NCBI GenBank assembly: GCA_050575255.1
Contig: JBNZDD010013622.1
Span: 516,119-580,118, forward strand
Source: Harriotta raleighana
Taxonomy: Eukaryota
Length of the DNA stretch: 64,000 bases
Direction of reading: 5' to 3'
The number at the start of each line of letters is the position of its first letter. The first letter of the stretch is position 1. A program made the position numbers and the translations under genes. Shown piece after piece: positions 38,340 to 48,542 of this stretch. Under the pieces are notes generated by a model, which had not been told where the DNA came from, made no database searches, and saw nothing but the letters and a program-made list of their open reading frames with translations.

Positions 38340-38480
38340 TCTGACTTCCTGACCCAGCTTCATTTCCTCTGTGGCGTGTGCTATTGCTGTGATCATTGCT
38401 CTCTGATCTCACGGCAAGTGTGCAAGCCTTGCTCAACATCCACTGAGGAACCCGGGCAAAATGTCCACCTTCACATCAGG
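38340..38480 (+). promoter_or_regulatory. Candidate PIK3CG-like promoter and non-coding first exon
   Basis: ETS cores ACTTCCT (38344-38350) and CTTCATTTCCTCT (reverse AGAGGAAATGAAG, PU.1/IRF-like); candidate donors cag|gtgaat (about 38479) and aaa|gtaagg (about 38548). Confidence 0.35.
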
Positions 38481-38949
38481 TGAATCTGCCTTTCAACCCA
38501 AGAGAGCTTCCACGATTCAGCATCTTTAGTATCTGTCGCTGATGAAAGTAAGGTCAGTTACACTCTTTCGTGTGGGATGGTTTCTTCTGCCTTAGATCGA
38601 AAGAGCACGAAATGAGGAACAATGAGTAGTGGCTTGACTGCCAGTAATCTGGGTGTGGGTGGGTGAAGAACTTTTAACTTGGTCAGCCCTGATATACACA
38701 CACACAACCGGACACTCGGGTATTGAAGTGAAGAGTTTTGAAACTGAAAAGACCAGAAAAAGACTTGACATTTTTTTTTACTATTGTTAATGAGCATTTC
38801 ACTCTCCTCATGATGCGCACTGTTATCAAACTTGGGAGAGTTAACAAGAAACGGGTTCTCAGTTCTTCAGAGCTCTGCTCAGATCACCAGTCCTTCCTTG
38901 AGAAGTGAAGGCAATTACCAGAAACTCTGAATTCTTACCCACTACGCTG

Positions 38950-39225
38950 TGGAGTCATGTAGCTCAATGGTTAGAGCAGTCGCCTTACAAGGGTGAGACT
39001 TGAGTTTTATTCCAGGCAGGTCAAGGCGAAACATGCCTAATAATAATTCCTCAAAAAGGAACAATAATAAATGGGTCATTTCAATCCATGACTATTTGTG
39101 GGACAATTGACTGCTGAGTTTCACCCACAAAGATGCAGTCAATTCACTTTACAGTATGTTATATGAAGTGCTTTGAGACATCTAGAAGGCATGAAAAGCA
39201 CTATATCAAAATGCAAGGACTATTA
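38950..39225 (+). mobile_element. tRNA-derived SINE copy
   Basis: gtagctcaatggttagagcag head, core and tail. Confidence 0.8.
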
Positions 39226-45400: not shown

Positions 45401-48400
45401 GATTTAATCTCTCCTCTCAGAAACCCTCAGCCCACCCCGGCCTTTCCTTCTTCCCGTCACAGCAATGAGCCCAGCGACCTCCTGACCTCGCCCACGATGG
45501 TGTTCTCTGAAAGAGGACGAGTACGACACCCAGTCACTGTCTGAATTTGTTGCCGTCCTTTTTCCGCAGGTGGATAAATGCAAAGTCATGGCGTCCAAGA
45601 AGAAGCCCCTGTGGCTGGAGTTTAAGTGTGCGGACCCCACCTCCGTGTCTAAGGACACCATTGGGATCATCTTTAAACAGGGCGATGATCTCCGGCAGGA
45701 CATGCTTATTATACAGGTACATGAGATGGGACATGACATGTCAAAGCGATTGCTGGGATGGTGGACGGCGAACTGGATAGACCTTGGTCTTTGTTTACCT
45801 AGCAAATTCTTGTGTTCTTATGCCCACTGTACACACAGATACACTGCACAATGTCACACCAACTCGCCTCGCCCTGTAGCACATTCAGACTGTAGGCCTG
45901 AGATGTGGTGGTTGGTAGTGTAACAACCCGGGTTGGTTGTTTGGTCAGAGACAGTGCAGTGGTTAGTACGACCTCGGTCATTGCTTGGTGACTGACGGAT
46001 GTGTTACTGTGTTGCACACAGATCCTGCTGATTATGGATTTGATCTGGGAGATGGAATCTCTGGACTTGTGTTTACTGCCGTACGGCTGCATCGCAACAG
46101 GCAACAAAATAGGTAAACTTCACCTCACCACTGACCATTGTAGAGCAGGTGTCAGAAGCGTCCGTTTGTGTCTGGACATGGAGCTGTATGCGGGAGTTTG
46201 CAAATTAACTGTCGTGTTTGTGTACGAAATAAACACGGTCGCTACACTTTGCAGTGAATCTTGCAAAGCGCTTGGAAATGTCGTCTGGACACCCCAAGTG
46301 TAAAAGGGTTTGGGGAAACAAGGGTGGGGTTAGGGATCAATCAATCAATCCAAATTACATTTATATAGCATCTTTCACGTTGGGAGGACGTCCCAAGGCG
46401 CTGTACAGCTGTCGACACAATGACAACATCATGATCACGGAGACAGGTGAGTGTTCAATCTCAGTGGGACCTTTTGTTGTGGCCGGCCAGGTGTCCGACA
46501 CACATGGAAACCTGTCACTGTGATCAGTATCATGTCTGACACACACGGAAACCTGTCACCGCGATTAGCCACATGTCTTACACACATGGAAATCTGTCAC
46601 CGTACTTTGTCCCCTGCATTGTAGGGTCTACTTCACATTATCTGAGAACTCTTGTAAGTAAAGCTACGCCATGAAGACTTTTCTCTTTTCAATTCAGGGA
46701 ATCTTTTTCATATTGATTTTGGCCACATCCTCGGAAACTATAAACATTTCCTTGGGATAAGTAAGGAGCGAGTCCCCTTCGTCCTGACTCCGGACTTTCT
46801 CTTTGTGATGGGCACGTACGGCACAAGAAGACCAGTCCTCACTTTCAAATACAATCAAGTAGGGATCAGAGCAGGGGTGGAGGGGTCGGGGAAAGGAAAA
46901 TAGGAGAAATTGACTTTATATTTGTGGGCAAAATTAGTGATTAGGAGATCCAGTAGAGGAGCCCGTGCCTCCTCCTGCACTGCGGTGACCACCAGTTTAC
47001 TAAAGACTGGTTGCCCCTCGACAGGAATAATCCAGATTGTCAAAGATGCCACTACCATCGCCAAGATCCAGCAAAGCACAGTCGGCAACACCGGAGCCTT
47101 TAAGGACGAGGTTCTGAACCATTGGCTGAAAGAGAAGTGTGTGAATGAGGAGAAGGTAGGGGTGTCACTGTATGTTGTGAGTGTGGTGGGTGTGGTGAGT
47201 TTATTGTCTGTGTGTGTGTGTATGTTTTCACTCCATGTCCCAAGGGTGATGGCCACTTGATGGTCCAGCCATGTTTAATTTAGTTTAATGTTAAACCATC
47301 TGCTACACTATGTGAGGTGAGACAAACCCTGTTTAATCTGCAGTTCCAATCCGCTGTGGAAAAGTTTGTCTTTTCGTGTGCTGGGTACTGTGTCGCTACA
47401 TATGTCTTGGGGATTGGAGACCGACACAACGACAACATCATGATCACGGAGACAGGTGAGTGTTCAATCTCAGTGGGACCTTTTGTTTTGCCCGGCTGGG
47501 TGTCTGACATACATGGAAATCTGTCACTGTGATCAGTCTAGTGTCTGACACACATGGAAACCTGTCACCGTACTTTCTCCCCTGCATTGTAGGGTCTACT
47601 TCACATTATCTGAGAACTCTTGTAAGTAAAGCTAGGTCATGAAGACTTTTCTCTTTTCAATTCAGGGAATCTTTTCCATATTGATTTTGGCCACATCCTC
47701 GGGAACTATAAACATTTCCTTGGGATAAGTAAGGAGCGAGTCCCCTTCGTCCTGACTCCGGACTTTCTCTTTGTGATGGGCACGTATGGCAAGAAGACCA
47801 GCCCTCACTTTCAAAAGTTTCAGGTGAGTTACAACAATAATATTGTAGTTTGTGGGACTGTGGGATGCTGCTGTGTACAATTAACCACTGTATTTTGCCC
47901 ACAATGTTCAGTTAATCCAGTTTACAATATATCCTGTGAAGTGCTTTGAAACATCTCAACAAAATAATCAGATCTATATTAAATGTAAAGTTTATTATTA
48001 TATTATTATTATGGCCATCTATTGGATATTGTGGAGCAAATTGGCTGCTGCATTTGCTGACAAATGTACACTTTACGGAAATATTGTTTCAGAAGCTTTG
48101 GTGAGATGTTGGCGATGTTACGGAGGCTGTATGAAGTGCAAAGGTTATTGATTGTTATTGAGGCCGAGTGAACGGCGGCCAATCACGCACAGACAGACAG
48201 ACAGACAGCGACAAGCAGTCGTGATTTCCGACCAAATGATTTATTTTGTGTGTTTGACAGGAGATCTGTCTGAAGGCCTACCGTACCTTGCGTCACCACA
48301 CTAACCTGCTGATCATACTCTTCTCCATGATGCTGATGACGGGGATGCCACAATTGACGAGCAAGGAAGATATTGAGTACATCCGCGAGACCCTGACCGT

Positions 48401-48542
48401 CGGCAAGAACGAAGACGAGGCCAGGGCACACTTCCTGGAACAGATTGAGATCTGCCGGGATAAAGGATGGACCGTGCAGTTCAACTGGTTCCTGCACCTG
48501 GTGCTGGGCATCAAACAAGGGGTTGATAAGCATTCTGCATAG
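40480..48542 (+). CDS. PIK3CG: Phosphatidylinositol 4,5-bisphosphate 3-kinase catalytic subunit gamma (p110-gamma)-like, complete, about 1107 aa
   Basis: Exons 40480-42486, 42765-42830, 42949-43174, 44920-45023, 45570-45716, 46022-46112, 47025-47155, 47344-47455, 47666-47823, 48261-48542 sum to 3324 nt in frame. Motifs: [59 protein letters not shown], and C-terminal [18 protein letters not shown]. The very large first coding exon is characteristic of PIK3CG. Orthologue versus paralogue is unresolved. Confidence 0.93.
42489..42533 (+). repeat. (GT)n microsatellite abutting a splice donor
   Basis: Direct reading. Confidence 0.9.
44468..44853 (+). mobile_element. tRNA-derived SINE copy (longer subfamily)
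   Basis: gtagcttagtggttagagtg head, ggttcgatt B-box, core and tail. Confidence 0.75.
46413..46849 (+). pseudogene. Diverged intragenic duplicate of PIK3CG-like exon 9 (3' part), intron and exon 10
   Basis: Copy of 47422-47815 with substitutions, a 2-nt insertion and one extra internal repeat unit; sits inside a repeat element. Confidence 0.85.

What the first reader, a model, noticed from the sequence alone, without database searches (positions are those of the whole stretch)
38340..48542. Intact PI3K-gamma gene inside the EVPL-ACOX1-FBF1 block: lost ohnologue or relocated PIK3CG
Seen: a full, intron-containing p110-gamma gene with PIK3CG-type exon structure lies between ACOX1 and FBF1. Established: in human, ACOX1 and FBF1 are adjacent at 17q25 and the single PIK3CG is at 7q22 next to PRKAR2B; chromosomes 7 and 17 share whole-genome-duplication paralogy. 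Inference: this is either a second class IB catalytic subunit retained in this lineage and lost in mammals, or the true orthologue at an ancestral or translocated position. Introns exclude a retrocopy.
Basis: partly seen in the sequence, partly recalled or inferred. Interest (0 to 1): 0.7.

Follow-up and report, generated by a model that had tools for sequence, protein, structure and literature searches.

The report
Relocated PI3K-gamma gene of cartilaginous fishes
This is the ordinary PI3K-gamma immune-signalling gene of a chimaera; in sharks, rays and chimaeras it sits in a different chromosomal neighbourhood than in humans, most likely because it moved once long ago, and it is not the extra copy that mammals lost.

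Summary
The gene is real and intact: 10 coding exons at 40480-48542 (+), all GT-AG, 1107 aa, downstream of ACOX1 and upstream of FBF1. It is not the lost second p110-gamma. It is 93.9% identical to Callorhinchus milii PIK3CG and groups with shark/ray and bony-vertebrate PIK3CG (100/100) in species-tree order. A divergent second p110-gamma does exist (about 46-48% identical) and is already published (Philippon 2015); forcing the window gene to group with it is rejected (AU p=0.0001). The position is no misjoin: EVPL and PIK3CG share a contig in 18 of 18 chondrichthyan RefSeq assemblies listing both, and in 0 of 3 lizards. The whole-genome-duplication argument fails: human 7q22 is paralogon 5, 17q25 paralogon 4 (Lamb 2021). 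A lamprey p110-gamma lies beside COPG, a paralogon-5 gene by recall, so the human-type region is probably ancestral. Most likely the gene moved once, introns included, into the EVPL-ACOX1-FBF1 block in stem cartilaginous fishes. I found no paper describing this move; it is a minor synteny fact.

The parts
38542..38547 (+). 3' end of a predicted upstream exon: ATG-AAA then GT donor; adds six residues (with 40468-40479) to give a long isoform. The exon's 5' end was not determined
   Evidence: matches the extra N-terminus of C. milii isoform X1 (P0005) versus X2 (P0125)
40468..42486 (+). large first coding exon (ATG at 40480; aa 1-669): PIK3CG-type adaptor-binding domain, Ras-binding domain, C2, start of helical domain
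42765..42830 (+). coding exon 2 (66 nt, aa 670-691)
   Evidence: the same 22 aa are missing in database isoforms of gecko, dog and catshark
42949..43174 (+). coding exon 3 (226 nt)
44920..45023 (+). coding exon 4 (104 nt)
45570..45716 (+). coding exon 5 (147 nt, aa 802-850; ATP-site Lys837, Asp840, Asp845)
   Evidence: exactly aa 802-850 are missing in isoforms of four New World monkeys, a marsupial, a lizard and a ray; residues
46022..46112 (+). coding exon 6 (91 nt)
46413..46849 (+). degenerate intronic copy of the end of exon 8, intron 8 and most of exon 9 (92-94% in ungapped blocks; 2-nt insertion shifts the frame); not part of the coding model
   Evidence: absent from a related organism's contig that crosses this intron (X9 record 20)
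47025..47155 (+). coding exon 7 (131 nt)
47344..47455 (+). coding exon 8 (112 nt; catalytic loop Asp950, His952, Asn955)
47666..47823 (+). coding exon 9 (158 nt; DFG at 968-970)
48261..48542 (+). coding exon 10 with stop (regulatory-motif Arg1025, Trp1084)
586..17235 (+). EVPL (envoplakin), upstream marker gene; 5' end lies before the first matched exon
   Evidence: tblastn with C. milii envoplakin, 82% over the 1133-aa last exon
19301..34202 (+). ACOX1-type acyl-CoA oxidase gene, immediate upstream neighbour (ends read by eye; C-terminal SKL)
   Evidence: Pfam ACOX in three 3' exon frames; sequence; the name ACOX1 rather than ACOX2/3 rests on recall and synteny
49080..49765 (.). 686-N assembly gap inside a G-rich minisatellite present on both sides
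51454..64000 (+). FBF1, downstream neighbour (5' end read by eye; runs off the window)
   Evidence: Pfam FBF1 at 62130-62537 and 62995-63309; sequence

Best explanation
This is the canonical PIK3CG (p110-gamma) orthologue of a holocephalan. It should work as in mammals: a class IB lipid kinase that pairs with p101/p84, is recruited by G-beta-gamma and Ras downstream of GPCRs and makes PIP3, mainly in leukocytes (inferred from orthology and conserved residues; not measured). Its place between ACOX1 and FBF1 is shared by chimaeras, sharks and rays and is best explained by one DNA-level move of the whole gene, introns kept, from its paralogon-5 home (the human 7q22 region) into the paralogon-4C block in the chondrichthyan stem, probably by copy followed by loss of the old copy. 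Shown: gene model, tree position, shared linkage with EVPL. Inferred: direction, timing and mechanism of the move.
For: 93.9% identity over 1107 aa to C. milii XP_007886993 = gi 632943520. IQ-TREE, 26 rows: chondrichthyans 100/100, chondrichthyan + bony PIK3CG 100/100, bony PIK3CG 92/88 on a short stem of 0.035; second paralogue separate. Mean identity chondrichthyan-sarcopterygian 74.5%, chondrichthyan-actinopterygian 73.1%, sarcopterygian-actinopterygian 75.1%, any of them to the second paralogue 47.5-48.6%. EVPL and PIK3CG on contigs of identical length in 18 of 18 chondrichthyan RefSeq assemblies listing both; accessions within 13 numbers in 14 of 17; different contigs in 3 of 3 lizards. 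Polarity: lamprey p110-gamma-like XP_078465812 and COPG XP_078465813 are consecutive on one contig and a fused 1948-aa model carries both; 7q22 neighbours are paralogon 5A. Catalytic residues, Asp369, Arg552/Lys553 and Arg1021 (primate numbering) are all kept.
Against: No genome was held, so I could not show that the old locus is empty in chimaeras/sharks. The COPG-linked lamprey copy (P0300) is not the one that groups with PIK3CG; the neighbours of that one (P0004, sister at 88/87 on a long branch) are unknown. COPG1/COPG2 were not in Lamb's tables (0 hits): their paralogon-5 position is recalled. Contig length and accession order are indirect synteny evidence; three species have wider accession gaps (56, 293, 1077). 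The bony-vertebrate position was checked only in three lizards. No laid piece spanned ACOX1-PIK3CG.
Confidence: 0.72

Rival explanations
1. True orthologue, but the ACOX1-FBF1 position is the ancestral gnathostome one and the gene moved to the 7q22 region in stem bony vertebrates.
For: Same tree and linkage data; with two lineages alone the direction is symmetrical; the neighbours of the lamprey copy nearest PIK3CG were not seen.
Against: A lamprey class IB gene is adjacent to COPG. GI arithmetic puts the C. milii second paralogue at or below XP_007888469, near PLXNA1 XP_007888525 (paralogon 5D), far from the 4C block at XP_007886925-7088; weak, but in the same direction.
Confidence: 0.12
2. 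Hidden paralogy: PIK3CG was duplicated shortly before the shark/bony split (a 2R sister copy or a segmental copy that landed in the 17q25 block), and each lineage kept a different copy.
For: Gives the same topology as orthology; explains two positions; bony monophyly is supported at 92/88.
Against: Needs a move plus two reciprocal losses; the bony stem is short (0.035) and shark-bony identity equals bony-bony identity; 4C is not a 2R sister of 5A (the sister 5B is chicken 26/gar LG3).
Confidence: 0.1
3. The window gene is the second class IB catalytic subunit, an ohnologue retained in fishes and lost in mammals.
For: A second p110-gamma exists in chondrichthyans and ray-finned fishes, and four teleost sequences of a divergent clade were recovered.
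Against: 43-54% identity to that clade against 67-74% to bony PIK3CG; AU test rejects joining them, p=0.000114; the matching C. milii gi is the canonical one. Caveat: no chondrichthyan or gar second-copy sequence was retrieved, so the test used teleost copies only.
Confidence: 0.02
4. Scaffold misjoin has placed the gene here.
For: 686-N gap 540 bp downstream of the stop; the assembly shows duplicated flanks around single Ns elsewhere in the window; no laid contig spans the junctions.
Against: No gap between ACOX1 and the gene; same minisatellite on both sides of the gap; EVPL-PIK3CG linkage in 18 independent assemblies; ACOX1 and FBF1 are 17q25 neighbours in human.
Confidence: 0.01

Closest known systems
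PIK3CG / p110-gamma, class IB PI3K (C. milii XP_007886993; human structures 7MEZ, 8DP0)
   Same: Five-domain layout with PIK3CG_ABD and no p85-binding domain; 93.9% to C. milii, 71% to a primate; exon boundaries at aa 669/691, 766, 801/850 coincide with deletions in tetrapod database isoforms; catalytic and regulatory residues kept.
   Different: Genomic neighbourhood: EVPL-ACOX1-FBF1 block instead of the 7q22 region; one species-level degenerate exon duplicate in intron 6; Ras-binding basic patch reads K-R-K-M at primate 251/254/255/256, within the variation seen among orthologues.
Second vertebrate p110-gamma paralogue of Philippon et al. 2015 (C. milii gi 632946473, gar, teleosts, coelacanth)
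   Same: Class IB domain set and catalytic residues.
   Different: Only about 46% identical in the two longest copies; separate long-branch clade; in the two copies compared it lacks the Arg552/Lys553 pair and most of the Ras-binding basic patch. The window gene is not a member.
Single-gene intron-retaining relocation (DNA-level transposition) in vertebrate genomes
   Same: All introns kept; flanking block order otherwise as in human; only one gene seen between ACOX1 and FBF1.
   Different: Very old (before the chimaera/elasmobranch split), so no insertion signature can be read; the route (transposon-aided, segmental, inversion series) is unknown. This category is from general knowledge, not from a call.

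Membership tests
Class IB PI3K catalytic subunit | PIK3CG-type adaptor-binding domain, no p85-binding domain (PF02192) | tested here: met
   PF19710 E=5.7e-85, no PF02192 among the 4 families reported for exon 1
Class IB PI3K catalytic subunit | RBD, C2, helical and kinase domains with intact catalytic Lys, DRH-N loop and DFG | tested here: met
Class IB PI3K catalytic subunit | Binds p101/p84 and is activated by G-beta-gamma and Ras | not testable with these tools
   Only residue conservation: Asp369 (p101 contact per bioRxiv 2021.06.01.446612) is kept; Arg552/Lys553 and the Ras-patch positions are recalled and kept or conservatively changed
PIK3CG orthologue group | Monophyly with mammalian PIK3CG in species-tree order | tested here: met
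   100/100; FastTree with 46 rows agrees
PIK3CG orthologue group | Shared exon boundaries | tested here: met
   Deletions in database isoforms fall on window exon ends (aa 670-691, 802-850, 670-801); other boundaries agree only with recalled human exon sizes
PIK3CG orthologue group | Conserved synteny with the human 7q22 neighbourhood (PRKAR2B, CCDC71L, SYPL1) | tested here: not met
   Neighbours are ACOX1, EVPL, FBF1. This lowers 'positional orthologue', not sequence orthology
PIK3CG orthologue group | No other equally PIK3CG-like gene in the same genome | tested here: inconclusive
   No genome. Among the best 120 of 256 hits only 4 chondrichthyan clusters appeared and they form one clade; one 201-aa fragment on an 84-kb contig is listed in a ray cluster; 136 hits were not shown
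Second p110-gamma paralogue (Philippon 2015) | Groups with the divergent fish p110-gamma clade | tested here: not met
   AU p=0.000114; teleost copies only
2R ohnologue of PIK3CG in place | Lies in a chromosomal block paralogous to human 7q22 | tested here: not met
   7q22 = paralogon 5A; 17q25 = 4C; human 17 holds only 4B, 4C, 2A, 1C, 16A/17A; elephant shark CACNG4 and GRIN2C accessions bracket EVPL/PIK3CG
Retrocopy | Intron loss | tested here: not met
   nine coding-region introns

The most novel reading that the evidence does not exclude
Shark/chimaera 'PIK3CG' and human PIK3CG are not orthologues but a reciprocally lost pair from a duplication just before the jawed-vertebrate split, so early gnathostomes had three class IB kinases and the two lineages run GPCR-to-PIP3 signalling in leukocytes on different copies under different regulatory neighbourhoods.
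Probability: 0.1. Interest if true: 0.45.

Novelty: new member of a known kind. Interest (0 to 1): 0.2.

Why it matters
Little for function: the protein is a conventional PI3K-gamma. The shared insertion is a usable rare genomic character uniting chimaeras with sharks and rays, and an exception in genomes known for conserved gene order; it warns that synteny-only orthology calls would misname this gene. The by-product is more useful: the real second p110-gamma has lost the basic residues linked to Ras and G-beta-gamma input in the two copies compared, and the coelacanth appears to keep it, which the 2015 paper's text does not say.

Tried and rejected
Whole-genome search: none held. First homologue search with lengths 'longer' returned only 3 proteins. 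No RNA holder listed; no statement on expression follows. Laying 4 runs on 33000-48900 gave no piece spanning ACOX1 to PIK3CG; repeats dominated. An apparent inversion in run X10 (41764 joined to reversed 44207) was rejected: both ends are GATC, as expected of a proximity-ligation junction. A recalled zebrafish clone name for the second paralogue found one guppy preprint whose table is an image, so neither identity nor position was confirmed. PIK3CG, PRKAR2B, EVPL, COPG1/2, CASKIN2, RNF157, UNKL, TIMP2, FOXJ1, SOCS3, MBD4 had 0 hits in Lamb's supplement, which was cut when stored. Placing the gar second paralogue by Ensembl ID order was considered and dropped as non-discriminating. Rows not counted in the 18 of 18: two fragmentary drafts (S. 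torazame, C. punctatum) with the two genes on different short scaffolds, three species with a PIK3CG row but no EVPL row (Mustelus, Rhinoraja, Leucoraja), and Pristiophorus EVPL without a contig; 4 of 19 members of one shark cluster were not listed. Earlier scan findings: nothing by words or by sequence.
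Full report
1. Observation. The gene is there. Ten coding exons on + from 40480 to 48542 splice at 9 of 9 GT-AG introns into 3324 nt, 1107 aa and one stop. An upstream donor at 38548, preceded by ATG-AAA, can join an acceptor at 40467/40468 and gives the six extra N-terminal residues seen in C. milii isoform X1. Exon 1 carries the PIK3CG adaptor-binding, Ras-binding, C2 and helical domains and no p85-binding domain. Solved p110-gamma chains score 962-974 bits, p110-alpha 144. 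EVPL, an acyl-CoA oxidase and FBF1 flank it in that order on the same strand; a review places ACOX1 and FBF1 at human 17q25 (PMC11164597, passages). The organism is a holocephalan other than C. milii, inferred from 93.9% (PIK3CG) and 82-85% (EVPL) protein identity. No genome was held.

2. Which p110-gamma is it? Philippon et al. 2015 (PMC4617754; passages and supplementary tree text) already report two p110-gamma genes in ray-finned and cartilaginous fishes from a gnathostome duplication, with one lost in Sarcopterygii. Their tip list has C. milii gi 632943520 directly after the human-to-zebrafish block and gi 632946473 after a second block that includes coelacanth, gar and eight teleosts; I saw tip order, not the drawn branches. 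The window's best hit, XP_007886993.1, is gi 632943520. My trees agree. With 26 rows and 1097 columns (IQ-TREE, LG+C20), window + C. milii 100/100, chondrichthyans 100/100, chondrichthyan + bony PIK3CG 100/100, bony PIK3CG 92/88; four divergent teleost sequences form a separate clade, and the two lamprey copies lie outside, on long branches that the tool flags as unsure. Holding chondrichthyan copies together with the divergent clade costs 47.8 log-likelihood units, AU p=0.000114. Mean identities are 74.5% (chondrichthyan-sarcopterygian), 73.1% (chondrichthyan-actinopterygian), 75.1% (sarcopterygian-actinopterygian) and 47.5-48.6% to the second copy. Limits: the 26 rows were picked from more than 400 proteins held; no shark, chimaera or gar second copy was retrieved; that the four teleost sequences are Philippon's second clade is inferred.

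3. Is the position real and shared? With no genomes I used contig length and RefSeq accession order. EVPL and PIK3CG proteins lie on contigs of identical length in 18 of 18 chondrichthyan RefSeq assemblies that list both (one chimaera, ten sharks, seven rays). For the 17 with both accessions, 14 are within 13 numbers (C. milii 007886991 and 007886993); the others differ by 56, 293 and 1077. Many PIK3CG names were cut off, so species were matched by accession block and contig length. Left out: two fragmentary drafts with the genes on different short scaffolds, three species without an EVPL row, one EVPL without a contig. In 3 of 3 lizards with both proteins the contigs differ (one species name was truncated). 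The gap at 49080-49765 lies inside one minisatellite. Laid reads gave no spanning piece, so the FBF1 side rests on that and on human gene order.

4. Ohnologue in place? No. In Lamb 2021 (PMC8040251; passages, section 9 and supplementary table rows, file cut when stored) SRPK2, SYPL1 and NRCAM at human 7:105.1, 106.1 and 108.1 Mb are paralogon 5, column A (gar LG8, chicken 1), with sisters on chicken 26, X and chicken 12. CYTH1 at 17:78.7 Mb is paralogon 4, column C (gar LG10, chicken 18), and human 17 occurs only in cells 4B, 4C, 2A, 1C and 16A/17A. Elephant shark CACNG4 (XP_007886925) and GRIN2C (XP_007887088) bracket EVPL and PIK3CG. That human PIK3CG lies between SYPL1 and NRCAM is recalled. 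So one lineage's gene has moved between unrelated ancestral chromosomes.

5. Direction. A lamprey p110-gamma-like protein (P0300) clusters with COPG proteins through a fused 1948-aa gene model that bears both domain sets, and in L. planeri the two have consecutive accessions on one contig. COPG1 and COPG2 lie at human 3q21 and 7q32 (recalled), beside RHO/PLXNA1 (5D) and OPN1SW/PLXNA4 (5A) in Lamb's tables. At two GI numbers per protein, the C. milii second copy would be at or below XP_007888469, near PLXNA1 XP_007888525; a scaffold end may lie between, so this is weak. Together they suggest a paralogon-5 class IB gene duplicated at 1R, one copy giving PIK3CG (5A), the other the divergent copy (5D), and a later move of PIK3CG to 4C in stem chondrichthyans. 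Against: the COPG-linked lamprey copy is unresolved in the tree, and the neighbours of the other lamprey copy are unknown.

6. How it works. By orthology it is a GPCR-activated class IB PI3K. The cryo-EM preprint 10.1101/2021.06.01.446612 (passages) names Asp369 as a p101 contact needed for full G-beta-gamma activation and Arg1021 as a regulatory residue; both are kept, as are Lys833, Asp836, Asp841, Asp946, His948, Asn951, Asp964, Trp1080 and the Arg552/Lys553 pair (positions other than 369 and 1021 chosen from recall; primate numbering). Identity to the primate protein rises from 47% in the adaptor-binding domain to 82% in the kinase domain, close to gar's 53% and 85%. Activity, partners and expression were not measured. 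All introns are kept, so the move was at DNA level; copy-then-loss is the likely route but is inference.

7. Intron-6 duplicate. 46413-46849 repeats the end of exon 8, intron 8 and most of exon 9 at 92-94% in ungapped blocks, with an internal expansion and a 2-nt insertion. Same-species contigs differ from exon 1 at 5 of 942 and 0 of 886 letters, so this is too diverged for a haplotype artefact; a contig of a related organism crosses the intron with about 26 letters where the window has 623. It is probably a recent, non-coding duplication.

8. Novelty. The gene is annotated as PIK3CG in public chondrichthyan records, and the second copy is published. I found no paper on the changed position: searches were pik3cg+paralog+cartilaginous+class I PI3K, pik3cg+ohnolog+elephant shark+synteny+spotted gar, pik3cg+acox1+fbf1+evpl, pik3cg+shark+synteny+chondrichthy and pik3cg+zebrafish+paralog+class IB; only listings were seen, 20 of 410, 20 of 347 and 15 of 55 for the larger ones, in an open-licence library. 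Brown and Auger 2011 (PMC3024228, passages) and the amphioxus study PMC8805411 (passages) showed nothing on position. The 2026 ohnologue database (PMC13450315, abstract and outline only) could not be queried and may bear on this.

9. Verdict. Observation confirmed; lost-ohnologue reading rejected; relocated orthologue supported (0.72 with the move in stem chondrichthyans, 0.12 for the reverse, 0.10 hidden paralogy). New member of a known kind; interest 0.2.

Noticed in passing
window 18221-18778 (-): Divergent histone H2B-like frame head-to-head with ACOX1 (Pfam Histone E=0.0036, 18 bits, below the 26.4 cut-off), with no in-frame Met before the matched part; an upstream ATG is in another frame. 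Variant gene with an unseen exon or pseudogene; human has TEN1/CDK3 here (recalled), which I did not see in 17300-19600.
   Followed up: partly
window 46413-46849: Frameshifted partial duplicate of PIK3CG exon 8/intron 8/exon 9 in intron 6, with intact splice sites copied; absent from a related organism's contig.
   Followed up: yes
window 5380-7429, 58520-58745, 60042-60240, 60508-60926: Near-identical sequence duplicated on both sides of single Ns (6406, 58642, 60142, 60718); 5380-6405 repeats at 99.9% and doubles an EVPL exon, 58642 doubles part of an FBF1 exon. Scaffolding artefacts.
   Followed up: partly
window 35334-35690: Perfect 179-bp tandem duplication downstream of ACOX1, without an N; real or artefact not tested.
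   Followed up: no
PMC4617754 Additional file 12: Two coelacanth p110-gamma proteins are listed although the text says the second copy was lost in Sarcopterygii; the loss is probably later, in or near tetrapods.
   Followed up: no
P0299, P0302 (second p110-gamma paralogue): Catalytic residues kept but Arg552/Lys553 and most of the Ras-binding basic patch are not (27% identity in the RBD): this copy may be regulated differently.
   Followed up: partly
P0451 (lamprey CAM9872049.1): Gene model fusing COPG and a p110-gamma-like protein; probably an annotation read-through of adjacent genes.
   Followed up: partly
window 41764 / 44207, run X10: Apparent inversion joint with GATC at both ends; read as a proximity-ligation artefact.
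   Followed up: yes
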